Source: Raillietiella orientalis (Eukaryota). Taken from it: a DNA stretch of 64,000 bases. The position numbers were made by a program, and so were the translations under genes. The DNA lies in the NCBI GenBank assembly GCA_036172245.1, contig JAYWIR010000058.1:1-64000 (forward strand). The letters are read 5' to 3'. Shown piece after piece: positions 1-49,461 of the stretch (the first letter of the stretch is position 1; each line of letters starts with the position of its first letter). Below the pieces are notes generated by a model that was given only the letters and a program-made list of their open reading frames with translations, was not told the origin of the DNA and ran no database searches.

Positions 1-479
1 CTTCCGGTTGGGATGGATTCGCTATCCGCTACGAACTTCCGAATTCACAAGTAGACGCACAAGTAGATAAGCGCTGGATTACGCAGCAGTACGATACTCC
101 GAGTTGCGATCTCTTCCACGAAATGCGCGAGTCGATCCGACAACCGAATTCGCAAGCAGCACACAGCAAGTTCTTCCGTCAGGAAAAATCTCCTTTGCTA
201 AGCAACGGGAATCGTTGCCGAAGTGAGAGGTGGCCGTGCTGACGTCACACAACCGACGCTCGAGCAATGCCTTTGGCGAGTGCCACTTCATCCTGGTTCG
301 GTGCACGCTCATGCGCAGAAAAGTGCGAAGGAAGGGAAACGGGAGCGTTTCTCGCACTTTGGCTCGATCTTCGCTGTTCCCCATTCTCGGGAACAATTCG
401 GCCCGTTCGTCGCTTTCCTCTTTTCTCGTCCCGTCTTTCGTCGTTTGTACGTTGTGACCATCCAAGGCGTGCGCGTCCC

Positions 480-3400: not shown

Positions 3401-4050
3401 GTAGCGTTTGCTTGCAGGAAACTGGGCACGCGGGCGAATAGCAAGCAGACGGGCCCGGAGTCACGGCGGCGGTTGCTGTACTGCTTCTGTAACAATGTCT
3501 GCCTCCAGGAAACAGTCGTGCATCGTGGCAAGGGAGCTGAGCCTGGATTGAACCTCCCACGCGGCAATGATGCCTGAGGGAGCTTCTTGGGCAGCAGCAT
3601 GCCAAGAAGGTGGAAGGTCTCGTGAGTTCAACTCCAGGAAGAAAGACTTGGGTGGTTGATCTACAGCGAGCTCGCAGGTACCAAGTGCCCTACGTCTTCG
3701 CAGCCGCGAGCTCTTGGCTAGTCCCCGGCGAGACTACCGATGGTCCCCAGTCCTCCTGAGAACACTTACATCTTGCCTTTTTGGTTTCGTATTCGGCGAT
3801 TCTGCTGTTGCACTGGATTTGTTTCTCTTCAAACCTCCTCCGACTTCACTGGACCCGGGTTTGTGTGGGAGCCCCAACTATAGCCGGCACGCAGAGCGCG
3901 GATCCGCCCGCAGCTGAATGGCTCTCAGGCTTCCTGGTGGTTAAACTTTGTGCCCACCCTCGGGATACCGGGGACAATTGCAGGAGCGTTTGGAAGTGAT
4001 GCATCTACCGACAGCCGCGTCCCTAGCAGCTCATTGCGGCTAGAGCCGGA
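480..4050 (+). mobile_element. Heavily decayed L1/Tx1-clade LINE (ORF1 + APE + RT remnants), copy 1
   Basis: Degenerate motifs in canonical order across shifting frames. ORF1-like: LVHRPFPYIPYE (~500), knuckle-like CSKKRSLMHGMYEYC (~815). APE-like: SFWNF (~1065), CVPAP (~1375), VLLLQGDS (~1505), SSRSHTFCV (~1757), RFPAFSSLL (~1870). RT-like: ASSCDG..LVY (~2420), QPAF (~2960), VFSDAAQGAY...EYTLSSAFGFS (~3100-3185), EPL (~3325), NTYILP (~3760), TLG(K/I)PGTIAGAFG (~3955). Each motif alone is weak; the order is the evidence. Confidence 0.55.
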
Positions 4051-4199
4051 TCGTGGCGGCCTGCAGCGACGCCTGGGAGACACGGACGCGCCATCGTTCC
4101 GCGTGGCCATTTGCTTCCCACGAAAAGCATTAACATGGTCGCAGCTGGGAAGCGTTCAGCAACACCCCGCCGGCACCTTAGGAAAGATGCAGAGGAACA

Positions 4200-4850
4200 G
4201 GCAGCGATCCCTTCCAAGCGTCTTCCCCCCATTTCTTCCTATTTGCTTTTTAATTTTCTCCCCGTTCTTGCTTGTCCTTCTGCAATTCTGCCAAGGACCA
4301 GCGAACCTGGCGAGTCTGCGCACATCCTTCGCGCCATTGCTTCCACCACCTCTGTTAGTTCATTTTCCACAATGGCATGTCGGCACGAGTCGACCGACAT
4401 CATGAGGACTGAAGCGAATCCGGTTGGCAGCTGGATGCTGCGTGCCACAGGGAAGAGGGCATTCAGGCAGAAACCACGAGATCAGTCGCAATCTCCTATT
4501 TTGAGTCATCCGAAAAGTCTGACTAGCAGTGGACATAGTCTTCCCACCGCGGTGCGAAGGGATGAACGAGTTCCCTTTTCGTGAGGAAAAAGTGGAAAAT
4601 TTGTTCGGCTGGTACTAAATGGGTGGACGGCATGCCCGGTTCGGATTCTCAATATGGGTCCGTCCAATCTTCTGACTGTTGCTGCCTTGGTCAGCTTTGG
4701 GTGGAATCCGCTGTGGCTGAAACTTCATCTTCGCTACTTTGGAGAGCAGTGGTTTCACGAGAGTTGGCTCTCGCTGGACGGCGCAGGGTGCGTGTTGCAT
4801 TTGGAAGCGAAAAAGGAGCGTCCCATTCCAATGTGTGCCAAAAGTGAGTG
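4200..4850 (-). mobile_element. LINE ORF2 3'-end remnant (zf-RVT-like region plus tail); also at ~12670-13320
   Basis: Minus-strand LVKPLLSKVAKMKFQ...NRACRPP / AEQIFHFFLT, then CRHAI-WKMN and LV(R/L)(S/G)RIAE. This resembles the CCHC knuckle and AIW...LVRSRI tail of L1/Tx1 ORF2; it is frameshifted. Confidence 0.4.
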
Positions 4851-5082
4851 GATGCAGTCGAAGTCGACTTTGATCTTTTGCGGTTCTTTTCTGCTTGTTT
4901 TCCTCATTCAGAGCATTCGAGGGAACGAGGCAAAATGAAAACAACGCTGAAAAGTGGCTGAGCATTCTGCACAACTTGGTTGGTGCCGTCGCATGGTGCC
5001 AAACTTTCGGTGATGTGGAATGGGCGACTTGGCAGTCGTGGACCATTCAAGAACTGAAAGATCATTCGAAATTCGACACGTA

Positions 5083-5088
5083 TTTATT
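5083..5088 (-). promoter_or_regulatory. Putative poly(A) signal of CAP-like copy A
   Basis: AATAAA on the minus strand ~50 nt after the TGA; conserved in copy B at 13569-13574. Confidence 0.55.
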
Positions 5089-5138
5089 GTGACTGCTTTG
5101 CCTGCATTCGAACGTGCAAGCAAAGCAGGCCTTCCGGG

Positions 5139-8072
5139 TCACCGGGGCGTAGGAGAGTGGGAAGAGGTCGGCAAGGGTGGAGGTGGGGTGTGCTGCTCAA
5201 CGCTGGCACCTTTTGCGTGCCATGGAACCCACGTCGTGTGATGGGTTTTCGCCAAACTGTGCAACTCGGACAATACGGCCATCCACGACTTCACCCAACA
5301 CACATGATCATCGCTGAAAGAAACGAGCAAGCACCATCTTTTCCCGATCTTCCCTTCGACCCGGAAACTCACTTTTCCTCCCATTCTTGGAGGACGCGCT
5401 TCACGGGGAGTCGGCATAAAAACATCATATCTTCAACAGCATCCGCGGGATAGGGGCTCTACGAAAAGGAAAGAAAGTTTGCGGATGCGTGCCCGAACAC
5501 CTACCATGGTCACCCAAAGGATGGCTGCCACACTCTGGCTGATCACACACAGGTGAACATGCGTCTCGGTGTCGCGCTGACTTTGCTCGAATGCCTCGAT
5601 CTGCACGATGCACTCGGAAAGCGGTTGAAGGAGGTCGAGCACTTTCGAGTCGTCGGGTTCCTGCGAGCAGCATATGAGTTGCATCAAACGCCCCTGGATC
5701 CTGCAACAGGAAAGAAAGATGGTTAGCAACTGGAGAAACCGAGGAGAGGGAACCTTCCATCGTGGCCTTATGAACACCAAGCGCTTACTTGAATGCTTTC
5801 AGCACCATGTCCGAGTGCTTGCGAACAGCTTCCGAGATCTTGGCCGACAGATTGCGGTAGACGGCCAAAGATCCCTTCCCAATTCGGGCGTAATCTTCGA
5901 GCCACGGATTGCTGATCTCTGGAAACAGCGGCAAACAAGGTATCGACATTCTGGACGATGGAAGGCACGCTGTTTCTCCATTGCGAGCTGTTAGCGACCC
6001 GTGAGTTGTGAGTTGATCAGCCAAGCCGTGTTAGGTCGACAGAAAGCGAGAATGGCCGCTGCAGCTCATCTTCGCTGCACGCGTCGCTCTGCCGATTTCG
6101 GCTATTCCAGGCAGCGCGGACGTGCACATCGGACTTGCGGGCAAGCAGCAAGCCATTGCACGCGGACAGTCGCAATTACCAAAGCCATCCGACTGCTCCA
6201 CGCCAAGTTCGGCCTCCGTTGCCGCAGCTTCCAGCGCCGTGGCTACTATCTCCAATCGCGTTATCAAGGATTCCAGTGCCGGGACCACGCACTCGATTTG
6301 CCCTTTGGGAAAAACAAGAAGCGTCTCATTAGCATTTTTCATGCATTCAACCGATCGGACAACGCGACGGCAACACGCGTGCCTCGCAAGCCGTCGGCGC
6401 ACCGCTCCCGCCACCGCCATCACGTCGAAACGCTGCCATGAGAGAAGCACACGAAACGTTCGTGCGAAGGGAAATTATCGTTCCTTTTCTTCGCATCCCA
6501 AGTGCAATTGCCTTGCTTGCGAAACGTTCGGCTCGACAAAATGCTCACGCAGCCGCTTGCACTCGGATAAATGGCCACCTTGTTCCGGAAAGAGTTTGAA
6601 GAACAAATCGCGCCTGTGAAATTCCCGAAGGCAACGCAGCGGCGCTCTTTCCAGACAAGCCTGCAGTTTCCCGAAATGCGCACCCCTTCTACCGACTTCC
6701 GGTCAAGAACACGTGCAACGGCTCTTCTTCTTTTCCGTCCTTCCTTGTTTCGCGCACAAGCGAAGAAAAAGCAAGTTTCTCGACCAAACGCATGCAAACG
6801 CGTTGCGAGCTCCACACGAGCCACGCACACGTACGCGTACGTTCGTGCGCGAACGTGCAGAACGAGCGACGCGCATCCGCAAACTCCACCCGGGGCACCG
6901 AATGGGAGGAGACGCGTGTGCAGTGGCCGGAATGCAGAACCCGTTCCACCAACCTTCTCGGCAATAATCTCCATAGTCGCACTGAACGCTGCGGCTGACC
7001 AGCCACCCATCTGGAGAGGTCTGCTTTCTTCTTCGCAGTTCGAGGCTATGTGTGCCTGCGCACCTATCCACAGCTGCCGAGGGCAGTTCGGCGCCATCGA
7101 CTCCCCAGACACGGGAATGGCGGCAGTCGCTTCCTTCGTTCCGCGTGGGCTCCGTGAGCAGCATCGAGCAGCAATGCTCTTCCTGCTCCCTGGCTACGTC
7201 GACGCCTCCGTCTTTGCCTCGCAGTTTGCTCGAGACTTCGCGTTTCGTAGGTTCGTTCCCTGGCAAGCACGTTGCCAGGGTCGCATCTTCTCCGGTTCTC
7301 CTTCCCCTGTGCTTGGAGAACCGGAAGCAAGCTAGCGTTTTTCCTTTCTTCGCCTTTTCGTTCGTGGTCTTCGTTCGTTCGCCGTTTCCATGCTCCTGCT
7401 TGGAAGCAATCGTTTCGGCCGCCTCCTTGTCGTCACCCGGAACCATTTGCCTTTTGCGATTCGCAGGCACGCGTTCCTTCGTCTCCTGTTGCTCCTGAAC
7501 TTCTACCTTCTTCGGCACGAACCGATTCCGTTTGTTGCCGGATTTCTTCTTGCATTCCCGATCTTCCTCCCGTTTCTCTTTCGCTTTCTGTCTTTCCTCC
7601 TCGTTTCTCTTCTTCTTCCGTTCATCTTTCAGTTTCTCGTCTCGCTTCCGTGCTTCCTTGGTGGCTTTTTCCCCCTCTTTCTGCATTCCTTGCTCTCCTT
7701 CTCTTGTGGAGTGAGGTTGCTTTTGAAGAACGAGGTTGCTTTCACGAGCTTCTTGCAGCTTTTGTCGGTAGTCGGGGAGCCGTTCGCAACAGGTACTCTT
7801 TCGGCTGGTCCGCTCCCCGCTTCCTCCGCTCCGTTCATCTTGCCCTTGCCTTTCTTCCAGCTGAACCAAAGCCATCTCTTCGGCTTGGGTTCCGTGCGGG
7901 AAGGCTCACCGCTGCTCTCCGGTGGCCACTCCTCTTCCGTTTGCTTCTGGATTCTCGGCGAAGACACGGTAGCAGAGGATGCCTTCGCGTACACACTCTC
8001 AGTGTCTGCGGTCCGAAACGAAGCTTTTTGCTTGCGATTCGGACTCCTCCTTCCCGATACGCAAGAGAACAT
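5139..8072 (-). CDS. Divergent adenylyl cyclase-associated protein (CAP/Srv2) N-terminal-half paralog, copy A
   Basis: Phase-consistent GT-AG exons: 6302-6180 (VVPALESLITRLEIVATALE, RLE motif), 5918-5789 (NPWLEDYARIGKGSLAVYRNLSAKISEAVRKHSDMVLKAF), 5700-5505 (QEPDDSKVLDLLQPLSECIVQIEAFEQSQRDTETHVHLCVISQSVAAILWVTM), 5458-5373 (SPYPADAVEDMMFLCRLPVKRVLQEWEE), 5313-5139 (DDHVCWVKSWMAVLSELHSLAKTHHTTWVPWHAKG...PPPPLP...TGA). These are collinear with the CAP1 helical folded domain (APYVQAFD..., KLSDLLAPISEQI..., NHLSAVSESIQALGWV, KPGPYVKEM...NRVLKEY, HVDWVKAYL...HTTGLAW). The large 5' exon ~8072-6954 is less certain and needs one frameshift. Confidence 0.85.
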
Positions 8073-8926
8073 GCCAAGCCAGGCTGAGCATTTCCCAACA
8101 TCAACATATCTAATCTCTGAGGCGTGCACAAGCCACGAATCACTTCCTGCGTCACACGTGCACCACAGAGTTGATTTCCCACATTCTCACGGACCTCGCA
8201 TTCATCTTACCGGTGCTCAGCTTTGTTTCTAGATCTGCTTTCCTTTCCTGCTACCTTACAGCCACTGGCTTTTCTAAGTTGGCAGTACGGTTATCCTTCA
8301 TGGATACCTCGGCGGCAGGATAGGCGAGATGTGTTTTTTCCGGGGTCACGAGCGACAAGACTCGCTTTCCGTTTGGTTTCGGAACCGAATCCGAAGTTCC
8401 GGATTCGCAGGGATGCGAATTACTTACGGTTGGGATTGATTCGCTATCCGCTACGAACTTCCGAATTCACAAGTAGACGCACAAGTAGATAAGCGCTGGA
8501 TTACGCAGCAGTACGATACTCCGAGTTGCGATCTCTTCCACGAAATGCGCGAGTCGATCCGACAACCGAATTCGCAAGCAGCACACAGCAAATTCTTCCG
8601 TCAGGAAAAATCTCCTTTGCTAAGCAACGGGAATCGTTGTCGAAGTGAGAGGTGGCCGTGCTCACGTCACACAACCGACGCTCGAGCAATGCCTTTGGCG
8701 AGTGCCACTTCATCCTGGTTCGGTGCACGCTCATGCGCAGAAAAGTGCAAAGGAAGGGAAACGGGAGCGTTTCTCGCACGCCCACGCTCCCACTTTGACT
8801 CGATCTTCGCTGTTCCCCATTCTCGGGAACAATTCGGCCCGTTCGTCGCTTTCCTCTTTTCTCGTCCCGTCTAGCGGCAGTCTTTCGTCGTTTGTACGTT
8901 GTGACCATCCAAGGCGTGCGCGTTCC

Positions 8927-11900
8927 GTTCCCTGGAATATCCTCGCACTTGTGCACCGGCCCTTCCCGTACATCCCGTACGAGCGTCGGGATCAGCGCAG
9001 CACACGCCCGTTGGGCGAATCGCGAAGGACGGAATAGGCGTCGGATATTTTGTTCAGCGCAGCAGCGGTGCGTGGAACGCGCGCTTGCCTCAAAGACGCG
9101 GTTCGTTGGCGCATGCTCTGCTTGTTGCGTGCGACAACAGCAAGCAGGCTGGTGAGCGGGATGGTGGCGCGTGCACGGCTTGGAGTTTCGCGAAACGCAT
9201 CCGTGAAGGGACACTCAACACTCAACTTGAAAGGCACCTCATTTTGCGTTCTCCAAGCACCTGTTCCAAGAAACGTTCGTTGATGCACGGCATGTACGAG
9301 TATTGCGAATCCACTCGGTGTACGAGCTCATGAAGAGTTTTCCTGAAGCTCTCGGTCATCCCCAGTTGCTGCTTTCGTTGCTGCCGCATGCCCAGCGCGC
9401 CACCACGAGAGGCTTCTTGAGCTCCCCTTCGGGCAGCTCGTGCTCGTCCCTGGCAGCCCACTCTTGATTCCCCTGCCGCCCGACGAACCGGGACACGCGC
9501 CGGTACCGTCGCGAGGCAAGTGGTCGTTTTGGAACTTTGTTGCGTGCACCTTTCCCCATCGTGTCCAGTGGAGGAAGTGCTGCAGGACCAGCACAAGTGG
9601 GCTCTCCACGCCCCTTGCGGCAGCGCTTTCTGCTTTAGTGGACAGTTGCCTACCGGCGGGATCAACTCGTCCCATGGGCGACTGGAGTCCGGCAGAAGGT
9701 GCCACGCCTGGCCATGTTCCCAAAGCAGTCCTTCGCTGCTGTGAACTCTTCAGTGTGCCACCAGAACAACTTGTGGACTCTCGTTCGTGCGTGGACGAGT
9801 GCGTGTGTTCCCGCTCCGATGGCGCATGGGTTAGCTTGCATTGCAACCAGAGCGCAAGCATCGTCTGCGGGGGAGTTGCTTCTTCAAAGACTGGTGCGGA
9901 AACGCTCGCGCATCTTTTCCTCCACTGCGAAGAAGGTGGCATCCCTGCTCCTGCTCCAGGGGGACAGCCCAAGAATTGGGATGCGCCGCTTCTTCACGCC
10001 TGGCCGCTTTTCCTTAGATGCGCTCATCGTAAGGAGGCCTTGTCTTCGCAACCCTCCACCAGCTGGAGTCTCGAGCGGTTGCTCGAGACGACACTTCTTT
10101 CGCTGAAGTCAACATGACGACGGCTGCCAGGCGGCCTGAACTCCCAGAAGATATGAGCGAGCAGCGAGATGTTCGTTATGCAGCGCCGGTTCCGCTTGCA
10201 GGGAACGGTCGAACGCGGAAACCCCTGTCATCGTCTCGTTCTCACACTTTTTGCGTGTTTCTTACATCAGTATTTGTGGACTGTTCCGGACTTTCCGTGC
10301 GACGCCACGTTAGACTGGCAGTCCACCTGTCCGACGTCCTTCGTTTCCCTGCCTTCTCCTCCCTTCTTCCCGGTAAGATCGCCAGCAACGCGGCGCCGCC
10401 CCGCCGCACACGGCTGAACGCGCAGCAAGAGCGTGCTTGCAGAAGCGCGATGCGCTCCACGTGGGAGCTTGCCGCCGATGACGGATACCACCGCACGAAC
10501 CCAACGAAAAATCGTTGGATGCGGCAGGCACGCACCGGCAGCCAGCGTTCCACTGCCTGATGGCAACAGCTTGCTTGCTGGTCACGGCGTTCTAGCCTGT
10601 GCTCGACATGCGAAACGGTGCGGGGGCAAGCGAGGTCGGTGGAAGCGGACTCTCTCCTGCTGCTTCATTTGCATGGAAACGTTTGCTGTGACGGTGCATA
10701 CGACGGCGTGAAACGCAGCAGGAAATCCGTGTGACGCGAAGGAGAAAATGCATGGCAAGTGACTGGCGCATTTCGCACCTGCGCTTTTTCGCTGTGCGGC
10801 TGCGCTGCCCTACCTTCTTGCCCATCTCGGTGGAAACGAGGCTCGACGAAACGAATACGATGGGGTTCTGCGAATCAGCAGAGATGCGTCATCTTGTGAT
10901 GGATGGGTGAAACTGGTGTATGCGCGCGACCCACAAGAAAGGATGCACGATGAAGAAGTGCTGCAGAGGTGACAGCTGGGAAGGGTGAAGCGGCAGCATT
11001 TCTGGTGCGGAGAACGTGCGCGTAGCGAAGGTTGCTTGGTTGGAGGGAGAAATGAAACGGCCAACGGCAACGACGTTGTGCAGATGTGTCGTTTCGCAAG
11101 AAGCCAGCTATCGACCGGCTTCCGCAATGACCGGAGCCAGCTCTTCCGCGTTCCATCTGCAAGCCCTCCACCTGGCCTCCATCTCCGGGATCGCCATTCG
11201 GGAACAAGTGTTCCTTTCTTGTCGCAGACACGCGCGTTGTCGCGCCACTGCGCACGCAGTTCGGCGCAGGCTTGCGCGCAGAAAGGTTCGCTGATGGCCG
11301 AGGCAGATCGAAGCGAAGATTGTGCGCGGCAGGCGTTCCCGGAGAAACGAGCTAGCTCTCGAGGTGGCTGCTGCCTCCGCTCTGCACGACGTCATTCGTT
11401 GCCAAGCAGTGCGAGGCAGGCGAGGGCACAGCACCCTCCTCCGTTGCAAAAAAGGGAGGCGCTGCGAAAAAAGCGAAGGCGGTTTGCCCGACCCTGTTGC
11501 TCGGATTGCCGACGATCCGGGGCCGTCTTGCAGCGCCGGAGCAGGACAGTTCTCCTGCGTGTTTTCTGACGAGCCGCAAGGCGCATACGGTCAACACCTG
11601 GAGAAGATGGAATACACGCTTTCCTCCGCGTTCGGATTTTCTCACACCTGATCGGTCTCATCAAAAGGGTACCGAAAGCATTCCCAACGTTTGCACTCGA
11701 GTTCGTTCTGCCTTCGACGCCCATCCTTGCGAAAAAATCGCATCCACCTTCTTGGTATGCTCGGCATGCTGTCCAACGTGGCCCACTGCGCGCTTCGCAT
11801 CACGTCTCGCCGACCAGGAAGAGCAGCTGGACCTCCAGCAGGATCGCCCCGCGAACGGTAGCGTTTGCTTGCAGGAAACTAACGCGCGGGCGAATAGCAA

Positions 11901-12518
11901 GCAGACGGGCCCGGAGTCACGGCGGCGGTTGCTGTACTGCTTCTGTAACAATTTCTGCCTCCAGGAAACAGTCGTGCATCGTGGCAAGGGAGCTGAGCCT
12001 GGATTGAACCTCCCACGCGGCAATGATGCCTGAGGCAGCTTCTTGGGCAGCAGCATGCCAAGAAGGTGGAAGGTCTCGTGAGAGTTCAACTCCAGGAAGA
12101 AAGACTTGGGTGGTTGATCTACAGCGAGCTCGCAGGTACCAAGTGCCCTACGTCTTCGCAGCCGCGAGCTCTTGGCTATTCCCCGGCGAGACTACCGATG
12201 GTCCCCAGTCCTCCTGAGAACACTTACATCTTGCCTTTTTGGTTTCGTATTCGGCGATTCTGCTGTTGCACTGGGGTTGTTTCTCTTCAAACCCCCTCCG
12301 ACTTCACTGGACCCGGGTTGTGTGGGAGCCCCAACTATAGCCGGCACGGAGAGCGCGGATCCGCCCGCAGCTGAATGTGGATTCTGTGGCTCTCAGGCTT
12401 CCTGGTGGTTAAACTTTGCGGCCACCCTTGGGAAACCGGGGACAATTGCAGGAGCGTTTGGAAGTGATGCATCTACCGCCAGCCGCGTCCCTGGCAGCTC
12501 ATTGCGGCTAGAGCCGGA
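8927..12518 (+). mobile_element. Decayed L1/Tx1-like LINE, copy 2
   Basis: Near-identical array copy of 480-4050. Confidence 0.55.
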
Positions 12519-13624
12519 TGGTGGCGGCCTGCAGCGACGCCTAAGAGACACGGACGCGCCATTCGTTCCGCGTGGCCATTTGCTTCCCACGAAAAGCATT
12601 AAGATGGTCCCAGGTGGGAAGCGTTCAGCAACACCCCGCCGGCACCTTAGGAAACATGCAGAGGAACAGGCAGCGATCCCTTCCAAGCGTCTTCTTCCCA
12701 TTTCTTCCTATTTGCTTCTTCATTTTCTTCCCGTTCTTGCTTGTCCTTCTGCAATTCTGCTGCGGACCAGCGAACCTGGCGAGTCTGCGCACATCCTTCG
12801 CGGCATTCCTTCCACCACCTCTGTTAGTTCATTTTCCACAATGGCATGTCGGCACGAGTCGACCGACATCGTGAGGACTGAAGCGAATTCGGTTAGCAGC
12901 TGGATGCTGCGTGCAACAGGGAACAGGGCATTCAGGCAGAAACAACGAGATCAGTCGCAATCTCCTATTTTGAGTCATCCGAAAAGTCTGACTATCAGTG
13001 GACATAGTCTTCCCACCGCGGTGCGAAGGGATGAACGAGTTCCCTTTTCGTAAGAAAAAAGTGGAAAATTTGTTCGGCTGGTACTAAATGGGTGGACGGC
13101 ATGCCCGGTTCGGATTCTCAATAATGGGAATCCGTCCAATCTTCTGACTGTTGCTGCCTTGGTCAGCTTTGGGTGGAATCTGCTGTGGCTGAAACTTCAT
13201 CTTTGCTACTTTGGAGAGCAGTGGTTTCACGAGAGTTGGCTCCCGCTGGACGGCGCAGGGTGCGTGTTGCATTTGGAAGCGAAAAAGGAGCGTCCCATTC
13301 CAATGTGTGCCAAAATTGAGTGGATGCAGTCGAACTCGCACTTTCGAAGTCGACTTTGATCTTTTGCGGTTCTTTTCTGCTTGTTTTCCTCATTCAGAGC
13401 ATTCGAGGGAACGAGGCAAAATGAAAACAACGCTGAAAAGTGGCTGAGCATTCTGCACAACTTGGTTGGTGCCGTCGCATGGTGCCAAACTTTCGGTAAT
13501 GTGGAATGGGCGACTTGGCAGTCGTGGACCATTCAAGAACTGAAAGATCATTCGAAATTCGACACGTATTTATTGTGACTGCTTTGCCTGCATTCGAACG
13601 TGCAAGCAAAGCAGGCCTTCCGGG

Positions 13625-16553
13625 TCACCGGGGCGTAGGAGAGTGGGAAGAGGTCGGCAAGGGTGGAGGTGGGGTGTGCTCCTCAACGCTGGCACCTTTT
13701 GCGTGCCATGGGACCCACGTCGTGTGATGGGTTTTCGCCAAACTGTGCAACTCGGACAATACGGCCATCCACGACTTCACCCAACACACATGATCATCGC
13801 TGAAAGAAACGACCAAGCACCATCTTTTCCCGATCTTCCCTTCGACCCGGAAACTCACTTTTGCTTCCATTCCTGGAGGACGCGCTTCACGGGGAGTCGG
13901 CATAAAAACATCATGTCTCGAACAGCATCCGCGGGATAGGGGCTCTACGAAAAGGAAAGAAAGTTTGCGGATGCGTGCCCGACCACCTACCATGGTCACC
14001 CAAAGGATGGCTGCCACACTCTGGCTGATCACACACAGGTGAACATGCGTCTCGGTGTCGCGCTGACTTTGCTCGAATGCCTCGATCTGCACGATGCACT
14101 CGGAAAGCGGTTGAAGGAGGTCGAGCACTTTCGAGTCGTCGGGTTCCTGCGAGCGGCATATTAGTTGCATCAAACGCCCCTGGATCCTGCAACAGGAAAG
14201 AAAGATGGTTAGCAACTGGGAAACCGAGGAGAGGGACCCTTCCATCGTGGCCTTATGAACAACAAGCGCTTACTTGAATGCTTTCAGCACCATGTCCGAG
14301 TGCTTGCGAACCGCTTCCGAGATCTTGGCCGACAGATTGCGGTAGACGGCCAAAGATCCCTTCCCAATTCGGGCGTAATCTTCGAGCCACGGATTGCTGA
14401 TCTCTGGAAACAGCGGCAAACAAGGTATCGACATTCTGGACGATGGAAGGCACGCTGTTTCTCCATTGCGAGCGGTTAGCAACCCGTGAGTTGTGAGCTG
14501 ATGAGCCAAGCCGTGTTAGGTCGACAGAAAGCGAGAATGGCTGCTCGAGCTCATCTTCGCTGCACGCGTCGCTCTGCCGATTTCGGCTATTCCAGGCAGC
14601 GCGGACGTGCACATCGGACTTGCGGGCAAGCAGCAAGCCATTGCACGCGGACAGTCGCAATTACCAAAGCCATCCGACTGCTCCACGCCAAGTTCGGCCT
14701 CCGTTGCCGCAGCTTCCAGCGCCGTGGATACTATCTCCAATCGCGTTATCAAGGATTCCAGTGCCGGGACCACGCACTCGATTTGCCCTTTGGGAAAAAC
14801 AAGAAGCGTCTCATTAGCATATTTCATGCATTCAACCGATCGGACAACGCGACGGCAACACGCGTGCCTCGCAAGCCGTCGGCGCACCGCTCCCGCCACC
14901 GCCATCACGTCGAAACGCTGCCATGAGAGAAGCACACGAAACGTTCGTGCGAAGGGAAATTATCGGTCCTTTTCTTCGCATCCCAAGTGCAATTGCCTTG
15001 CTTCCGGAACGTTCGGCTCGACAAAATGCTCACGCAGCCGCTTGCACTCGGATAAATGGCCACCTTGTTCCGGAAAGAGTTTGAAGAACAAATCGCGCCT
15101 GTGAAATTCCCGAAGGCAACGCAGCGGCGCTCTTTCCAGACAAGCCTGCAGTTTTCCGAAATGCGCACCCCTTCTACCGGCTTCCGGTCAAGAACACGTG
15201 CAACGGCTCTTCTTCTTTTCCGTCCTTCCTTGTTTCGCGCACAAGCGAACAAAAATCAAGTTTCTCGACCAAACGCATGCAAACGCGTTGCGAGCTCCAC
15301 ACGAGCCACGCACAGGTACGCGTACGTTCGTGCGCGAACGTGCAGAACGAGCGACGCGCATCCGCAAACTCCACCCGGGGCACCGAATGGGAGGAGACGC
15401 GTGTGCAGTGGCCGGAATGCAGAACCCGTTCCACCAACCTTCTCGGCAATAATCTCCATAGTCGCACTGAACGCTGCGGCTGACCAGCCACCCATCTGGA
15501 GAGGTCTGCTTTCTTCTTCGCAGTTCGAGGCTATGTGTGCCTGCGCACCCATCCACAGCTGCCGAGGGCCGTTCGGCGCCATCGACTCCCCAGACACGGG
15601 AATGGCGGCAGTCGCTTCCTTCGTTCCGCTTGGGCTCCGTGAGCAGCATCGAGCAGCAATGCTCTTCCTGCTCCCTGGCTACGTCGACGCCTCCGTCTTT
15701 GCCTCGCAGTTTGCTCGAGACTTCGCGTTTCGTAGGTTCGTTCCCTGGCAAGCACGTTGCCAGGGTCGCATCTTCGGTTCTCTTTTCAACGGCGGAGAAC
15801 CGGAAAAAGCTAGCGTTTTCCTTTCTTCGCCTTTTCGTTGGTGGTCTTCGTTCGTTCGCCGTTTCCATGCTCCTGCTTGGAAGCAATCGTTTCGGCCGCC
15901 TCCTTGTCGTCACCCGGAACCATTTGCCTTTTGCGACTCGCAGGCACGCGTTCCTTCGTCTCCTGTTGCTCCTGAACTTCTACCTTCTTCGGAACGAACC
16001 GATTCCGTTTGTTGCCGGATTTCTTCTTGCATTCCCGATCTTCCTCCCGTTTCTCTTTCGCTTTCTGTCTTTCCTCCTCGTTTCTCTTCTTCTTCCGTTC
16101 ATCTTTCAGTTTCTTGTCTCGCTTCCGTGCTACCTTGCTGGCTTTTTTCCCCCTCTTTCTGGACTCCTTGCTCACCTTCTCTTGTGGAGTGAGGGTTGCT
16201 TTTGAAGCCTCTCACCCTTTCTTCCAAACTTCTTGCAGCTTTGTCGGTAGTCGGGAGCCGTTCGCAGCAAGTGCCTCTCTCGGCTGTTCCGCTCCCGCTT
16301 CCTCCGCTCCGTTCATCTTGCCCTTGCCTTTCTTCCAGCTGAACCAAAGCCATCTCTTCGGCTTGGGTTCCGCGCGGGAAGGCTCACTGCTGCTCTCCGC
16401 TGGCCACTCCTCTTCCGTTTGCTTCTGGATTCTCGGAGAGGACACGGTAGCAGAGGATGCCTTCGCGTACACACTCTCAGTGTCTGCGGTCCGAAACGAA
16501 GCTTTTTGCTTCGGCGATTCGGACTCCTCCTTCCCGATACGCAAGGAAGACAT
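13625..16553 (-). CDS. Divergent CAP/Srv2 N-terminal-half paralog, copy B
   Basis: Same exon structure at offset ~8485. The CAP-domain exons are in frame (e.g. 13944-13859 SPYPADAVRDMMFLCRLPVKRVLQEWKQ) and end at TGA 13627-13625. The 5' charged exon has several indels relative to copy A. Confidence 0.8.
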
Positions 16554-17409
16554 GCCAATCCAGGCTGAGCACATTTCCCAATTGCGAGGGACTCGACCTG
16601 GAAGTCGTGCACAAGCCACGAATCACTTCCTGCGTCACACGTGCACCACAGGATTGATTTCCCACATTCTCACGGACCTCGCATTCATCTTACCGGTGCT
16701 CAGCTTTGTTTCTAGATCTGCTTTCCTTTCCTGCTACCTTACAGCCACTGGCTTTTCTAAGTTGGCAGTACGGTTATCCTTCCTGGATACCTCGGCGGCA
16801 GGATAGGCGAGATGTGTTTTTTCCGGGGTCACGAGCGACAAGACTCGCTTTCCGTTTGGTTTCGGAACCGAATCCGAAGTTCCGGATTCGCAGGGATGCG
16901 AATTACTTCCGGTTGGGATGGATTCGCTATCCGCTACGAACTTCCGAATTCACAAGTAGACGCACAAGTAGATAAGCGCTGGATTACGCAGCAGTACGAT
17001 ACTCCGAGTTGCGATCTCTTCCACGAAATGCGCGAATCGATCCGACAACCGAATTCGCAAGCAGCTCACAGCAAATTCTTCCGTCAGGAAAAATCTCCTT
17101 TGCTAAGCAACCGGAATCGTTGTCGAAGTGAGAGGTGGCCGCGCCCACGTCACACGACCGACGCTCGAGCAATGCCTTTGGCGAGTGCCACTTCATCCTG
17201 GTTCGGTGCACGCTCATGCGCAGAAAAGTGCGAAGGAAGGGAAACGGGAGCGTTTCTCGCACGCCCACGCTCCCACTTTGGCTCGATCTTCGCTGTTCCC
17301 CATTCTCGGGAACGATTCGGCCCGTTCGTCGCTTTCCTCTTTTCTCGTCCCGTCTAGCGGCAGTCTTTCGTCGTTTGTACGTTGTGACCATCCAATGCGT
17401 GCGCGTTCC

Positions 17410-20400
17410 GTTCCCTGGAATATCCTCGCACTTGTGCACCGGCCCTTCCCGTACATCCCGTACGAGCGTCGGGATCAGCGCAGCACACGCCCGTTGGGCG
17501 AATCGCGAAGGACGGAATAGGCGTGGGATTTTTTGTTCAGCGCAGCAGCGGTGCGTGGAACGCGCGCTTGCCTCAAAGACACGGTTCGTTGGCGCATGCT
17601 CTGCTTGTTGCGTGCGACAACAGCAAGCAGGCTGGTGAGCGGGATGGTGGCGCGTGCACGGCTTGGAGTTTCGAGAAACGCATCCGTGAAGGGACACTCA
17701 ACACTCAACTTGAAAGGCACCTCATTTTGCGTTCTCCAAGCACCTGTTCCAAGAAACGTTCGTTGATGCACGGCATGTACGAGTATTGCGAATCCACTCG
17801 GTGTACGAGCTCATGAAGAGTTTTCCTGAAGCTCTCGGTCATCCCCAGTTGCTGCTTTCGTTGCTGCCGCATGCCCAGCGCGCCACCACGAGAGGCTTCT
17901 TGAGCTCACCTTCGGGCAGCTCGTGCTCGTCCCTGGCAGCCCACTCTTGATTCCCCTGCCGCCCGACGAACCGGGACACGCGCCGGTACCGTCGCGAGGC
18001 AAGTGGTCGTTTTGGAACTTTGTTGCGTGCACCTTTCCCCATCGTGTCCAGTGGAGGAAGTGCTGCAGGACCAGCACAAGTGGGCTCTCCACGCCCCTTG
18101 CGGCAGCGCTTTCTGCTTTAGTGGACAGTTGCCTACCGGCGGGATCAACTCGTCCCATGGGCGACTGGAGTCCGGCAGAAGATGCCACGCCTGGCCATGT
18201 TCCCAAAGCAGTCCTTCGCTGCTGTGAACTCTTCAGTGTGCCACCAGAACAACTTGTGGACTCTCGTTCGTGCGTGGACGAGTGCGTGTGTTCCCGCTCC
18301 GATGGCGCATGGGTTAGCTTGCATTGCAACCAGAGCGCAAGCATCGTCTGCGGGGGAGTTGCGTCTTCAAAGACTGGTGCGGAAAAGATGCGCTCCCGCA
18401 TCTTTTCCTCCACTGCATCCGTGCTCCTGCTCCAGGGGGACAGCCCAAGAATTGGGATGCGCCGCTTCTTCACGCCTGGCCGCTTTTCGTTAGATGCGCT
18501 CATCGTAAGGAGGCCTTATGTTCGCAACCCTCCACCAGCTGGAGTCTCGGGCGGTTCTTCGAGACGACACTTCTTCCGCTGAAGTCAACATGACGACGCC
18601 TGCCAGGCGGCCTGAACTCGCAGAAGATATGAGCGAGCAGCGAGATGTTCGTTATGCAGCGCCGGTTCCGCTTGGAGGGAACGGCCGAACGCGCAAACCC
18701 CCGTCATCGTCTCGTTCTCACACTTTTTGCGTGTTTCTTACATCAGTATTTGTGGACTGTTCCGGACTTGCCGTGCGACGCCACGTTAGACTGGCAGTCC
18801 ACCTGTCCGACGTCCTTCTTTTCCCTGCCTTCATCCTCCCTTCTTCCCGGAAAGATCGCGAGCAACGCGGCGCCGCCGCACACGGCTGAACGCGCAGCAA
18901 GAGCGTGCTTGCCGAAGCGGGATGCGCTCAACGTGGCAGCTTGCCGCCGATGACGGATACCACCGCACGAACCCAATGACAAATCGTTGGATGCGGCAGG
19001 CACGCACTGGCAGCGTTCCACTGCCTGATGGCAACAGCGTGCTTGCTGGTCACAGCGTTCGAGCGTGTGCTCGACATGCGAAACGGTGCGGGGGCAAGCG
19101 AGGTCGGTCGAAGCGGACTCTCTCCTGTTGCTTCATTTGCATGCGTACGTTTGCTGTGACGGTGCATACGACGGCGTGAAACGCAGCAGGAAATCCGTGT
19201 GACGTGAAGGAGAAAATGCATGGCAAGTGAGGTGGCGCATTTCGCACGTGCGCTTTTTCGCTGCCTACCTTCTTGCCCATCCTCGGTGGAAACTAGGCTC
19301 GAGCGAAACGGGCTTCACGATAGAGGTTCTGCGAAGATCAGCAGAGATGCGTCATCTTGTGATGGATGGGTGAAACTGGTGTATGCGCGCGACCCACAAG
19401 AAAGGATGCACGATGAAGAAGTGCTGCAGAGGTGACAGCTGGGAAGGGTGAAGCGGCAGCATTTCTGGTGCGGAGAACGTGCGCGTAGCGAAGGTTTGCT
19501 TGAACGGAGGGAGGAAATGAAACGGCCAACGGCAGCGACGTTGTGCAGATGTGTCGTTTCGCAAGAAGCCAGCTATCCGACCGGCTTCCGCAATGACCGG
19601 GCCAGCTCTTCCGCGTTCCATCTGCAAAGCCTGCCGGCCTCCATCTCCGGGATCGCCATTCGGGAACAAGTGTTCCTTTCTTGTCGCAGACACGCGCGTT
19701 GTCGCGCCACTGCGCACGCAGTTCGGCGCAGGCTTGCGCGCAGAAAGGTTCGCTGATGGCCGAGGAAGATCGAAGCGAAGATTGTGCGCGGCAGGCGTTC
19801 CCGGAGAAACGAGCTAGCTCTCGAGGTGGCTGCTGCCTCCGCTCTGCACGACGTCATTCGTTGCCAAGCAGTCTGAGGCAGGAGAGGGCACAGCCGGCAT
19901 TCAGCACCCTCCTCCGTTGCAAAAAAGGCAGGCGCTGCGAAAAAAGCGAAGGCGGTTTTTACGACCCTGTTCCTCGGATTGCCGACGATCCGGGGCCGTC
20001 TTGCAGCGCCGGAGCAGGACAGCTCTCCTGCGTGTTTTCTGACGCGGCGCAAGGCGCATACGGTCAACACCTGGAGAAGATGGAATACACGCTTTCCTCC
20101 ACGTTCGGATTTTCTCACACCTGATCGGTCTCATCAAAAGGGTACCGAAAGCATTCCCAACGTTTGCACTCGAGTTCGTTCTGCCTTCGACGCCCATCCT
20201 TGCGAAAAAATCGCATCCACCTTCTTGGTATGCTCGGCATGCTGTCCAACGTGGCCCACTGCGCGCTTCGCATCACGTCTCGCCGACCAGGAAGAGCAGC
20301 TGGACCTCCAGCAGGATCGCCCCGCGAACGGTAGCGTTTGCTTGCAGGAAACTGGGCACGCGGGCGAATAGCAAGCAGACGGGCCCAAGTTACGGCGGCG

Positions 20401-20991
20401 GTTGCTGTACTGCTTCTGTAACAATTTCTGCCTCCAGGAAACAGTCGTGCATCGTGGCAAGGGAGCTGAGCCTGGATTGAAGCTCCCACGCGGCAATGAT
20501 GCCTGAGGGAGCTTCTTGGGCAGCAGCATGCCAAGAAGGTGGAAGGTCTCGTGAGAGTTCAACTCCAGGAAGAAAGACTTGGGTGGTTGATCTACAGCGA
20601 GCTCGCAGGTACCAAGTGCCCTACGTCTACGCAGCCGCGAGCTCTTGGCTATTCCCCAAAGAGACTACCGATGCTCCCCAGTCCTCCTGAGAACACTTAC
20701 ATCTTACCTTTTTGGTTTCGTATTCGGCGATTCTGCTGTTGAACTGGGGTTGTTTCTCTTCAAAGCCCCTCCGACTTCACTGGACCCGGGTTGTGTGGGA
20801 GCCCCAACTAGAGCCGGCACGGAGAGCGCGGATCCGCCCGCAGCTGAATGTGGATTCTGTGGCTCTCAGGCTTCCTGGTGGTTAAACTTTGCGGCCACCC
20901 TTGGGAAACCGGGGACAATTGCAGGAGCGTTTGGAAGTGATGCATCTACCGCCAGCCGCGTCCCTGGCAGCTCATTGCGGCTAGAGCCGGA
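17410..20991 (+). mobile_element. Decayed L1/Tx1-like LINE, copy 3
   Basis: Near-identical array copy of 480-4050. Confidence 0.55.
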
Positions 20992-21149
20992 TGGTGGCGG
21001 CCTGCAGCGACGCCTGGGAGACACGGACGCGCCATTCGTTCCGCGTGGCCATTTGCTTCCCACGAAAAGCATTAAGATGGTCCCAGGTGGGAAGCGTTCA
21101 GCAACACCCCGCCGGCACCTTAGGAAACATGCAGAGGAACAGGCAGCGA

Positions 21150-21700
21150 TCCCTTCCAAGCGTCTTCCCCCCATTTCTCCCTATTTGCTTTTTCATTTTC
21201 TTCCCGTTCTTGCTTGTTCTTCTGCAATTCTGCTGCGGACCAGCGAACCTGGCGAGTCTGCGCACATCCTTCGCGGCATTCCTTCCACCACCTCTGTTAG
21301 TTCATTTTCCACAATCTATGCTCCGGCGCACCTTCGGATGGCAAAAACCATTTCGAGGTTGTAGGTAAATAAGTTTCTCTTTGAAATGTGTGAGATGCGC
21401 CCTTCTCGTGGTGCACCTGACACGGAGATAACGTCCCTGACCATGTCCTCCCGTTTTTCCTTTGGGGTCTGCAGAATGCTACCCACACGCTAAGGAGGGC
21501 AGCACACTCAAACAACAGGTGTGGCAAGGTTTACCTTTCAGCTATCCGAACGGTCCACCATGGCGGGAAAGAGCTTTCTGCTCTGGATGGTGGTGGATGT
21601 GTTCGGAAGTCGTTGCGCGAGTCCTGCATCCACACAGGTGGGTTCAGCGAAATGCGCACCCACTGACCTCCTTGCTACCTACAATCTGTTCTTTCGCAAA
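21150..21700 (-). mobile_element. LINE ORF2 3'-end remnant spanning the array's right boundary
   Basis: ER*TLPHLLFECAALLSVW at ~21540-21480 is ET..HLLFEC..L..VW with E as TAA. It continues HRLWKMN across 21315 into LVRSRIAEE inside the array. Confidence 0.55.
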
Positions 21701-25859: not shown

Positions 25860-26130
25860 CACATTAAGGCAGATCTGGTGGTTTAGCAGAGCTCTCTTTG
25901 TAGAGAAGACCATGCCACTGTCCGGCTTGTTGGAGAAGAGCCTCGATGAGACTTGAACGCACATCTTCTGCACTTATATTTGACTGCACCACGCCATTTC
26001 TGTGCGTAACCACCATGTAGAGCTTTATCTTCTGTACCTGGTGGCGAACCATCGAGAGTCTGGGGATGTAGCCGCACCCAGTCACGCCACAGGACATCGA
26101 CTGGGAAACACTGGGAACAGTGGCGAATGT
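25860..26130 (-). mobile_element. Decayed multi-zinc-finger remnant, possibly the N-terminus of an RLE-type (NeSL/Utopia/R2-like) retrotransposon
   Basis: Frameshifted minus-strand pieces SCGVTGCGY...THR, YKCRRCAFKSH and GMVFSTKRALLNH. No RT recognised downstream. Confidence 0.3.
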
Positions 26131-34800: not shown

Positions 34801-35408
34801 GTTTTTACATGTAAGTACAGAATTTATTAACATTCTCAAAATACCTGAATTATCCAATAAATGCTTTATGGTTTACAAACGATAATGTATTCTGACAGAA
34901 AATCGCATCCATTGTGCAACATTTTAAGATGGTCAAACCTTAAATAACAGGTTTGTGAGTACACGAATCTGTTTCATTTGTTTGTTACACAGGTTCGTAA
35001 GCCAGATTTTTTGCTTATTACGAATGGCTAGTAAAAAAGTTTTTTCTAATCTATGATCAGGTACGCTATTTTGATAATTAAGCAACCACTTTAATAGCTG
35101 ACATCTGAATGTAGTAAATCTGAAACAAATGAAATACTCAACTCAAAATGCATAATTCCTTTGGAAATTAATAAAATGCTCTTAAGTGAAAATCACGTAC
35201 CTTGCCAAGTAAAAAGCTTGCATGGAGTACATTTTCCGAAACAAATAAGTATTATAATCATAATAACCGTAAATCGATTTACATGTGAACAATGCAACTA
35301 TCCAAAAATGTTATTTAATATACATGGCAATAGGAATAATGTATAAAACAAAATAAGGCAATTTAAAACGATCAGTCTTTTCAAAAGGATTTCAATTTAG
35401 AGTTAAGT

Positions 35409-49458: not shown

Positions 49459-49461
49459 CGT

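What the first reader, a model, noticed from the sequence alone, without database searches (positions are those of the whole stretch)
4374..21315. Ampliconic array of 'half-CAP' genes: RLE + helical folded domain, no WH2/CARP
Seen: each complete 8.47-kb unit has five phase-consistent exons encoding a divergent CAP N-terminal half. They end in a short proline run, TGA and AATAAA, followed by LINE-like debris rather than WH2/CARP exons. Both complete copies keep these exons free of frameshifts, while introns and flanks carry indels. Known: CAP/Srv2 is usually low-copy and conserved; the N-terminal half oligomerises and, with cofilin, accelerates actin filament pointed-end depolymerisation, while WH2/CARP recycle ADP-actin monomers. 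Inference: this is a lineage-specific, amplified actin-disassembly module uncoupled from monomer recycling, or a dominant modifier that co-oligomerises with canonical CAP. Such amplicons are often germline/sperm genes or conflict loci, but that is speculation here.
Basis: partly seen in the sequence, partly recalled or inferred. Interest (0 to 1): 0.75.

Follow-up and report, generated by a model that had tools for sequence, protein, structure and literature searches.

The report
Tandem genes for a truncated CAP
A tandem repeat in an animal genome carries intact copies of a gene for only the front half of the actin regulator CAP, but that half has lost the residues CAP normally uses to grip actin, so it probably does something other than ordinary filament disassembly.

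Summary
Window 1-21315 is a head-to-tail array of an 8.47-kb unit: two complete units plus a partial one cut by the window edge. Each complete unit carries, on the minus strand, five GT-AG exons giving a 249-aa open frame. It encodes a heptad/RLE coiled coil, a complete CAP helical folded domain (Pfam CAP_N; 118-124 bits against my own profile) and a PPPPLP stub, then TGA and AATAAA. No WH2 or CAP_C signal was found in the unit or the 64-kb window. "LINE-like debris" found no support.

The protein is very diverged, 34% identical to a CAP1-like protein. All four mouse CAP1 residues reported as actin contacts are replaced: Arg118, Glu119, Phe162, Tyr163 become Glu, Gln, Leu, Pro.

Three sequence variants carry no exonic indel or stop. 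Synonymous changes are in excess (9 of 19, p=0.015), and indels are depleted around the gene.

Expression, total copy number and the genome's canonical CAP could not be tested. My best reading is a constrained, truncated CAP paralogue that is not a standard depolymeriser. Interest is moderate.

The parts
1..21315 (.). Head-to-tail array of an 8.47-kb unit: partial unit 1-4373 (cut by the window's left edge), unit 4374-12843 and unit 12844-21315
   Evidence: A contig of run X1 joins 12842 back to 4374.
6180..6342 (-). Copy 1 exon 1. ATG at 6342, heptad/RLE coiled-coil segment, ends in phase 1.
5789..5918 (-). Copy 1 exon 2, start of the helical folded domain
5505..5700 (-). Copy 1 exon 3, core of the domain. 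Holds Glu136/Gln137 in place of mouse CAP1 Arg118/Glu119.
   Evidence: Pfam CAP_N E=1.2e-9; PDB 6rsw_C E=1e-6
5373..5458 (-). Copy 1 exon 4. Holds Leu180/Pro181 in place of Phe162/Tyr163. Most variable exon between copies (6 of 86 nt).
5139..5313 (-). Copy 1 exon 5: last helix of the domain, PPPPLP stub, TGA at 5141-5139. Holds an internal weak GT (AAG|GTGCCA) at 5209, phase 1.
5083..5088 (-). AATAAA, 51 nt after the stop of copy 1
6418..6420 (-). Upstream in-frame ATG in a better context (G at -3, G at +4). It would add 26 Arg/Ala-rich residues. Which ATG is used is unknown.
14665..14827 (-). Copy 2 exon 1
14274..14403 (-). Copy 2 exon 2
13991..14186 (-). Copy 2 exon 3
13859..13944 (-). Copy 2 exon 4
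13625..13799 (-). Copy 2 exon 5 with TGA
13569..13574 (-). AATAAA of copy 2
4858..7289 (.). Indel-poor stretch of the unit: the gene, about 280 nt downstream and about 950 nt upstream. It holds 1 of the 42 indels between units 1 and 2.

Best explanation
This is a real tandem array of at least three units, two of them complete in the window. Each complete unit carries an intron-containing, protein-coding gene for a truncated and strongly diverged paralogue of cyclase-associated protein (CAP). The product has an N-terminal heptad/RLE coiled coil (the oligomerisation domain, OD), one complete helical folded domain (HFD) and a short PPPPLP remnant of proline motif P1. It has no WH2 or CARP domain.

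Shown: the anatomy, the domain assignment, the absence of C-half coding sequence in the unit, and the replacement of four published actin-contact residues.

Inferred: the gene has been kept as coding sequence. The frame is open and collinear despite about 66% amino-acid divergence, synonymous changes are in excess among three variants, and indels are depleted around it.

Inferred, and the least certain step: because the actin-contact residues are gone while the coiled coil is kept, the protein most likely does not act as an ordinary cofilin-dependent pointed-end depolymeriser. It more likely works through oligomerisation. It could enter CAP oligomers as a subunit that cannot grip actin and so lower their activity, or it could self-assemble as a scaffold with a new partner.

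My odds: a constrained, functional gene about 0.5. Within that, a decoy or modifier acting through the coiled coil about 0.2, a new partner about 0.2, and canonical N-CAP activity about 0.1.
For: - **Array and exon model.** The array and its exact edges are. Five GT-AG exons give 249 aa in both copies.
- **Domain assignment.** The spliced product matches my profile of 8 reference HFDs as one domain, residues 62-232, at 118.0 and 123.9 bits. The best of 200 shuffles scored 2.0 bits. Pfam CAP_N hits exon 3 above its cut-off. Exon 3 matches PDB mouse CAP1 HFD 6rsw_C at E=1e-6, and exon 5 matches Dictyostelium 1tjf_A at E=6e-4.
- **Collinearity.** The MAFFT alignment with 9 reference HFD rows needs almost no gaps, and identity to P0010 is 64 of 191.
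- **Coding-like composition.** GC at codon positions 1/2/3 is 0.59/0.41/0.66.
- **Coiled coil.** Hydrophobic residues at 23, 26, 30, 33, 37 and 40 are spaced 3-4-3-4-3, with an RLE motif. This fits the oligomerisation domain as described in PMC7543520.
- **Constraint between copies.** Exons have 0 indels against 4.1 expected (P=0.016). The stretch 4858-7289 has 1 indel against 16.6 expected (P=1e-6). Only 7 of 37 chance ORFs of 100 aa or more elsewhere in the unit stay open in copy 2.
- **A third variant.** A contig of run X1 shows no exonic indel. Its 6 private exonic changes are 4 synonymous and 2 not. Pooled with the copy 1/copy 2 changes, 9 of 19 are synonymous against 23% expected (p=0.015). 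Private differences number 6 in 1204 nt of gene body against 21 in 751 nt of flanks (p=3e-5).
- **Loss of actin contacts.**
Against: - No expression evidence of any kind exists.
- Between the two in-window copies alone, dN/dS is 0.46 from 13 differences and is not significant (5 of 13 synonymous, p=0.15).
- Mismatch density in the gene span (24 of 1204) is only slightly below the rest of the unit (208 of 7218). Another block, 963-1462, is more alike between units than the gene is.
- The indel-poor stretch extends well beyond the exons, so it could reflect sequence composition or a gene-conversion tract rather than selection on the protein.
- The X1 contig may be a mosaic of copies, or an allele from the same sample the window was assembled from. 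Its table of differences was truncated (40 of 150 rows shown), and my view that the interior of the contig is fully listed is an inference.
- Only 19 of 33 well-conserved HFD columns are kept, fewer than in any reference (61-97%). Exon 4, which holds the lost Phe/Tyr, is the most variable exon. Both fit relaxed constraint as well as a new function.
- The oligomerisation mechanism is pure inference; nothing tested binding.
Confidence: 0.45

Rival explanations
1. The copies are non-functional relics. A segmental tandem duplication copied only the 5' half, with promoter, of a diverged full-length CAP paralogue. The copies are young enough, or homogenised enough by gene conversion, to remain open by chance.
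For: - The unit boundary lies only 765 nt downstream of the stop. A breakpoint in a downstream intron of a longer parent would give exactly this picture.
- The in-window pair shows no significant dN/dS signal.
- Several conserved surface residues are lost, and only 19 of 33 conserved columns are kept.
- No transcript evidence is available.
Against: - Exons have 0 indels against 4.1 expected.
- Synonymous changes are in excess once the third variant is added (p=0.015).
- The gene body is much more alike than its flanks in the third variant (p=3e-5).
- The in-frame PPPPLP sits where P1 lies in P0010, and TGA plus AATAAA are kept in both copies. That argues for a settled 3' end rather than random read-through.
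- Only 7 of 37 chance ORFs stay open.
Confidence: 0.3
2. The product is an active N-CAP module that, with cofilin, speeds pointed-end depolymerisation without recycling actin monomers.
For: - The product has the OD plus HFD architecture of N-CAP.
- N-CAP alone is active in vitro according to PMC7543520 and PMC6876575 (passages).
Against: - Arg118, Glu119, Phe162 and Tyr163 of mouse CAP1 are all replaced, by Glu, Gln, Leu and Pro.
- The Phe162/Tyr163 mutant loses binding to cofilin/actin and twinfilin/actin monomer complexes.
- Two aromatic residues stand at those columns in 7 of the 8 reference rows that cover them. P0009 has Ala-Phe, and P0004 ends before these columns.
- From general knowledge, actin is too conserved to have co-varied.
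Confidence: 0.12
3. The 249-aa frame is not the whole product. Transcripts use the weak phase-1 donor at 5209 and splice onward. They could reach C-half exons beyond the array's left end (leftmost copy only). They could instead reach exon 2 of the next unit, which has the same phase, giving a multi-HFD protein like those of some protists.
For: - The donor AAG|GTGCCA at 5209 is phase 1, as is the exon 1/exon 2 junction.
- Proteins with 2-4 CAP_N domains and no CAP_C exist: P0005, P0007, P0009.
- The left end of the array is off the window.
Against: - The donor is weak, with C at +4 and +5, while the four used donors are GTAATT, GTAAGC, GTAGGT and GTGAGT.
- It would need an intron of about 8 kb in a gene whose introns are 46-261 nt.
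- No C-half coding sequence lies anywhere in the 64 kb.
Confidence: 0.1
4. The array is an assembly artefact: the repeat was wrongly expanded or joined.
For: Tandem repeats are error-prone in assemblies. The only read set that holds the sequence may be the source sample itself.
Against: - The units differ at 232 sites and 42 indels, so they are not one sequence written twice.
- A short-read contig spans the unit-to-unit joint 12842>4374.
- The right edge is a clean switch to unique sequence.
Confidence: 0.03

Closest known systems
Canonical CAP/Srv2 (mouse CAP1; Drosophila Capulet) and its N-terminal half, N-CAP
   Same: It shares the N-terminal heptad/RLE coiled coil, a collinear six-helix HFD (Pfam CAP_N; PDB 6rsw_C, 9q7o_W, 1tjf_A matches) and a proline run directly after the HFD.
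   Different: It ends 11 residues after PPPP and has no WH2, P2 or CARP. Identity to a CAP1-like protein is only 34%. The four published actin-contact residues are replaced. It is tandemly duplicated, whereas most invertebrates are said to have one CAP (PMC7543520, passage).
HFD-only, multi-domain proteins of protists: P0005 Pygsuia biforma (2 CAP_N), P0007 Nolandella sp. (4), P0009 Compsopogon caeruleus (4)
   Same: They carry CAP_N without CAP_C on the same polypeptide. They were among the 11 hits to exon 3 in 1.84 billion representative proteins.
   Different: They hold 2-4 HFDs in one chain and keep an aromatic residue at one or both of the Phe/Tyr columns and mostly a basic residue at the Arg118 column. 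This gene encodes one HFD per frame and has lost both features. Whether those organisms also have a separate C-half was not examined.
Apicomplexan CAP (Toxoplasma, Plasmodium)
   Same: It is a naturally truncated CAP that keeps one functional half only (PMC6785269, passage).
   Different: It is the mirror image: apicomplexans keep only the C-terminal CARP domain, and that gene is their sole CAP. This gene keeps only the N-half and is presumably an extra paralogue.
Caenorhabditis auriculariae protein CAD6197962.1 (P0003)
   Same: It is an animal CAP with a lineage-specific change in HFD dosage, carrying two CAP_N domains.
   Different: It retains CAP_C and is a single polypeptide, not a truncated tandem gene.

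Membership tests
CAP/Srv2 family (full-length cyclase-associated protein) | Helical folded domain (Pfam CAP_N, PF21938) | tested here: met
   Exon 3 scores 38.8 bits against a cut-off of 27. The spliced product scores 118-124 bits over residues 62-232 against my profile of 8 HFDs, and 200 shuffles reach at most 2.0 bits.
CAP/Srv2 family (full-length cyclase-associated protein) | N-terminal coiled-coil oligomerisation domain with heptads / RLE motif | tested here: inconclusive
   The sequence shows 3-4-3-4-3 hydrophobic spacing at residues 23-40 and one RLE, aligned with the RLE of P0005. No coiled-coil predictor or structure model was run.
CAP/Srv2 family (full-length cyclase-associated protein) | WH2 domain and second proline motif | tested here: not met
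   No Pfam hit in 21 ORFs of 30 aa or more downstream of the stop or in 79 ORFs of the unit. tblastn with P0010 and P0003 gave no hit to their central parts.
CAP/Srv2 family (full-length cyclase-associated protein) | C-terminal CARP domain (Pfam CAP_C, PF08603) | tested here: not met
   None was found in the unit or the 64-kb window. The sequence left of the window is unseen.
Functional N-CAP (cofilin-dependent pointed-end depolymerase) | Actin-contact residues of the HFD: Arg118, Glu119, Phe162, Tyr163 of mouse CAP1 | tested here: not met
   They are Glu136, Gln137, Leu180 and Pro181 here (HMMER alignment; MAFFT; mapping through P0010 to 9q7o_W). The residue list comes from PMC6876575. The shift of one between the 475-residue chain and mouse numbering is my inference.
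Functional N-CAP (cofilin-dependent pointed-end depolymerase) | Binding to cofilin/ADP-actin and acceleration of depolymerisation | not testable with these tools
   This needs recombinant protein.
Ampliconic (multi-copy, often germline-expressed) gene family | Many near-identical copies | tested here: inconclusive
   Two copies are in the window and a third variant is in run X1. Units are about 97% alike. The array is open at the window's left edge, and contig depth cannot give copy number.
Ampliconic (multi-copy, often germline-expressed) gene family | Germline or sex-biased expression, sex linkage | not testable with these tools
   No RNA run is listed for this sequence and no genome is held.
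Processed retrocopy | Lack of introns | tested here: not met
   There are four GT-AG introns of 261, 88 (87 in copy 2), 46 and 59 nt.

The most novel reading that the evidence does not exclude
This could be a natural 'poison subunit' of the CAP machine. It would be a tandemly amplified protein that keeps the coiled coil by which CAP assembles into tetramers or hexamers, and keeps the HFD fold, but has shed the actin-gripping residues. By co-assembling with canonical CAP it would lower the number of working HFDs per oligomer and so tune down cofilin-driven filament disassembly in a dose-dependent way. Published work shows that N-CAP activity rises with oligomer order (PMC7543520, passage), which makes such a decoy mechanistically plausible.
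Probability: 0.15. Interest if true: 0.7.

Novelty: new variant of a known kind. Interest (0 to 1): 0.45.

Why it matters
CAP is one of the few actin regulators found in all eukaryotes. According to the review read here, most invertebrates have a single copy (PMC7543520, passage). The two halves of CAP are known to work separately in the test tube.

A natural N-half-only gene in an animal would be a ready-made experiment on what that half does alone. It would be the mirror image of the apicomplexan C-half-only CAP.

The sharper point is that this copy keeps the assembly motif and the fold but has replaced all four residues named as actin contacts. If expressed, it is a candidate built-in inhibitor or a re-purposed scaffold rather than a depolymeriser. 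If it is not expressed, the locus is an ordinary partial segmental duplication.

Tried and rejected
**Searches and tests that gave nothing**
- Whole-genome search for CAP_C: no genome is held for this window. The canonical CAP, a phylogeny against it, copy number and sex linkage could therefore not be examined.
- Word-indexed protein search with exon 3, longer proteins: no hit.
- Sequencing runs: no RNA holder listed. Runs X2 and X3 laid nothing.
- Protein atlas with the 117-aa plus-strand ORF at 4585-4935 and with exon 3: no usable hit.
- Earlier findings of this scan by place, sequence and words: nothing.
- Rfam at gathering thresholds over the window: 0 matches.
- Tandem Repeats Finder on 1-26000: 0 rows.
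- blastn and tblastx of the unit against 21400-64000: no match, so no dispersed repeat is shared.
- PDB search with exon 2 or exon 4 alone: no match; these pieces are too short.
- The 413-aa ORF at 60393-61634: no Pfam family and no homologue. It is probably a chance frame in 65% G+C DNA.
- Paper search for truncated or tandem CAP paralogues: 12 of 1,207 papers listed, none relevant. Together with searches, I found no report of an N-half-only CAP gene in an animal. These searches are not exhaustive.
- One paper search failed on a malformed term and was re-sent correctly.

**Not attempted**
- Structure prediction of the spliced product.
- The supplements of PMC6876575, which list further interface mutants, were not opened.

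**Readings considered and rejected**
- Processed retrocopy: rejected because there are four introns.
- A second gene in the unit: the long frames 962-1987(+) and 6706-7905(-) are broken in copy 2.
- The sub-threshold RBD_RDR6 hit at 6600-6995(+), 20 bits against a cut-off of 27: treated as chance.

Full report
**1. What is in the sequence**

Direct-repeat analysis finds 17 families spaced 8422-8486 nt. Eleven have three copies and six have two. A three-way alignment shows that 1-21315 is a head-to-tail array of one unit.

The two full units differ by 232 mismatches and 42 indel events over 8422 nt. Homology stops exactly at 21315|21316, which corresponds to 4373|4374 and 12843|12844.

The window starts inside the array, so 1-4373 is the right-hand part of a further unit whose gene lies off the window. 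A short-read contig of public run X1 crosses the unit-to-unit joint, 12842 back to 4374. That run may be the source sample and is not independent.

**2. The gene model**

The coding strand is minus. In copy 1 the exons are 6342-6180, 5918-5789, 5700-5505, 5458-5373 and 5313-5139. Copy 2 has the same structure at 14827-13625.

All eight introns are GT..AG, with lengths 261, 88 (87 in copy 2), 46 and 59 nt. Exon-end phases are 1, 2, 0 and 2. Both copies give 750 nt and 249 codons ending in TGA, with AATAAA 51 nt further on.

G+C at codon positions 1/2/3 is 0.59/0.41/0.66, against 0.54 in introns.

An in-frame ATG 78 nt upstream (6420) has a better context (G at -3 and +4) than the ATG at 6342 (T at -3). 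It would add 26 Arg/Ala-rich residues. An out-of-frame ATG lies at 6439. The true start is unknown.

**3. What it encodes**

- Pfam CAP_N (PF21938) hits exon 3 at E=1.2e-9 (38.8 bits, cut-off 27) and exon 5 at E=4.8e-4 (below cut-off). Exons 1, 2 and 4 alone give no CAP hit.
- Exon 3 matches the mouse CAP1 HFD in PDB 6rsw_C (E=1e-6). Exon 5 matches the last helix of Dictyostelium CAP 1tjf_A (E=6e-4).
- HMMER against 1.84 billion representative proteins gave only 11 hits at E of 0.001 or better for exon 3. The top hit is a spurious ankyrin-repeat protein, and the best true hit has E=2.3e-6.
- Spliced in a script and aligned with nine reference HFD rows, the product is collinear with almost no gaps. 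Identity is 34% (64 of 191) to P0010 and 20-28% to the others. P0010 is a CAP1-like protein that matches PDB 9q7o_W at E=2e-85.
- Against a profile built from eight reference HFDs, the product scores 118.0 bits (copy 1) and 123.9 bits (copy 2) as one domain over residues 62-232. The best of 200 shuffles scored 2.0 bits. That the splice model yields one uninterrupted domain is itself good support for the model.
- Upstream of the HFD, residues 23-40 show 3-4-3-4-3 hydrophobic spacing with an RLE motif that aligns with the RLE of P0005. This fits the oligomerisation domain described in PMC7543520 (passages).
- After the HFD comes PPPPLP, at the place of the P1 proline run of P0010. The stop follows 11 residues after the proline run.

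**4. What it lacks**

- In 79 ORFs of 75 aa or more across 1-9214, the only CAP family is CAP_N. The only other hit is a sub-threshold RBD_RDR6 match.
- 21 ORFs of 30 aa or more in 4242-5290 give nothing at E up to 1: no WH2, no CAP_C and no reverse transcriptase.
- tblastn of nine proteins, including P0010 and P0003 which carry CAP_C, hits only 5.2-5.7 kb and 13.7-14.4 kb with their N-halves. Three hits elsewhere have E of 0.4-1 and are short.
- The unit shares nothing with 21400-64000.

The absence of C-half exons from the unit and the window is supported.

One caveat is structural. The gene's stop lies only 765 nt from the unit boundary. The downstream sequence of every internal copy is the tail of the neighbouring unit. 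The leftmost copy, off the window, runs into unseen unique sequence. A full-length parent gene there cannot be excluded.

**5. The actin-binding surface**

Kotila et al. 2019 (PMC6876575; passages read) report three points:
- Phe162 and Tyr163 of the mouse CAP1 HFD coordinate actin's D-loop region.
- Mutating them abolishes binding to cofilin/actin and twinfilin/actin monomer complexes.
- Arg118 and Glu119 form salt bridges with actin Glu57 and Lys50.

In the HMMER alignment to CAP1, the Phe-Arg-Glu of CAP1 faces Phe-Glu-Gln here, at residues 135-137.

In the MAFFT alignment, the Phe-Tyr of P0010 faces Leu180-Pro181. One search shows that this Phe-Tyr is the Phe-Tyr of CAP1 in the motif MFYTNRVL.

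Two aromatic residues stand at the Phe/Tyr columns in 7 of the 8 reference rows that cover them. P0009 has Ala-Phe, and P0004 ends before these columns. A basic residue stands at the Arg118 column in 7 of 9 reference rows.

Of 33 columns where at least 75% of references agree, this protein keeps 19. These are mostly Pro, Trp, His and Leu. Each reference, left out in turn, keeps 61-97%.

The fold therefore looks kept, while the known actin face is gone.

**6. Is it under constraint?**

Between the two in-window copies:
- The coding sequence has 13 differences, 5 synonymous and 8 not. dN/dS is 0.46 and not significant (p=0.15).
- Introns have 11 differences in 454 nt and one indel.
- Exons have no indel against 4.1 expected (P=0.016).
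- The two longest indel-free stretches of the unit abut at the single intronic indel and span 4858-7289. That is 1 indel against 16.6 expected (P=1e-6). This stretch also covers about 950 nt upstream, so it is not specific to exons.
- Only 7 of 37 chance ORFs of 100 aa or more elsewhere in the unit stay open in copy 2.

The X1 contig over 4374-6555 is a third variant:
- 27 of its 40 listed differences from copy 1 are not those of copy 2.
- Its three indels inside the gene are all in intron 2.
- Its six private exonic changes are four synonymous and two not (V33A, C18S).
- Private differences number 6 in 1204 nt of gene body against 21 in 751 nt of flanks (p=3e-5).
- Pooling the 19 variable exonic sites, 9 are synonymous where 23% are expected (p=0.015).

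Caveats: the contig may be a mosaic or an allele, the table was truncated, and gene conversion could mimic part of the pattern.

A deeper argument is that a frame of 249 codons with no indel against distant CAPs at about 34% identity cannot have drifted neutrally for most of its history. This does not date the truncation.

**7. Context**

A neighbouring exon at 30298-31185 encodes mitochondrial arginyl-tRNA synthetase. Its best identities, 40-47%, are to pancrustacean arthropods, but a crinoid and a mammal score about the same. The host is an animal with no close relative in the protein collection.

A PLD-like exon lies at 47530-48111. The array therefore sits among ordinary genes.

No RNA family was found in the window and no short tandem repeat in 1-26000.

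**8. Interpretation**

The proposed activity is doubtful because of the lost actin contacts.

The kept coiled coil and fold, together with the signs of constraint, make a truncated paralogue acting through oligomerisation my best reading. It could be a decoy within CAP oligomers or a re-purposed scaffold. Published work links N-CAP activity to oligomer order (PMC7543520).

A non-functional partial duplicate remains a strong rival.

A weak phase-1 donor at 5209 could in principle splice to exon 2 of the next unit, giving a multi-HFD chain like P0005, P0007 and P0009. I rate this unlikely.

**9. Comparison and novelty**

It is not a full member of the CAP family as defined by HFD plus WH2 plus CARP. 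It is a CAP_N-domain paralogue.

The nearest parallels are:
- HFD-only multi-domain proteins of protists.
- As a mirror image, the CARP-only CAP of apicomplexans (PMC6785269, passage).

I found no report of an N-half-only CAP gene in an animal (searches, not exhaustive). I file it as a new variant of a known kind, of moderate interest until expression is shown.

Noticed in passing
window 26000-42000 versus 1-26000 and 46000-64000: G+C drops sharply from 55-59% to 32-40% and rises again to 50-65% within one 64-kb window. The tRNA-synthetase exon in the A+T-rich block has GC3 of 0.27, against 0.66 for the CAP-like gene.
   Followed up: partly
window 30298-31649 (+): Mitochondrial arginyl-tRNA synthetase lies in two long adjacent frames (tRNA-synt_1d E=8.6e-60; DALR_1 E=4.2e-8). 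Best identities of 40-47% are spread over arthropods, a crinoid and a mammal, so the host has no close relative in the protein collection.
   Followed up: partly
window 47530-48111 (+): An exon with a PLD-like domain (PLDc_3, E=3.7e-11).
   Followed up: no
P0005, P0007, P0009, P0002 (proteins): Protist transcriptome proteins (Pygsuia, Nolandella, Compsopogon) and a metagenome fragment consist of 2-4 CAP_N domains with no CAP_C. This architecture may deserve its own look.
   Followed up: partly
window 963-1462 and its copies at 9.4-9.9 kb and 17.9-18.4 kb: This is the most alike block of the unit, 99.2-99.4% in all three pairwise comparisons and higher than the gene itself. It has no Pfam hit, and its long plus-strand frame is not preserved between copies.
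   Followed up: no
window 6706-7905 (-): A 400-aa Lys/Glu/Arg-rich frame in a purine-rich tract lies just upstream of the gene on the same strand. It is broken by several 1-nt indels in copy 2, so it is probably non-coding low-complexity DNA.
   Followed up: partly
window 8078-8123, 8914 and 12400-12420 (run X1): Contigs of X1 leave the unit at these places into unlike sequence. The loose end at 12400 reads like a sequencing adapter. The others might mark other partial copies or insertions.
   Followed up: no
window 60393-61634 (-): A 413-aa open frame in 65% G+C DNA has no Pfam family and no homologue. It is likely a chance frame.
   Followed up: yes
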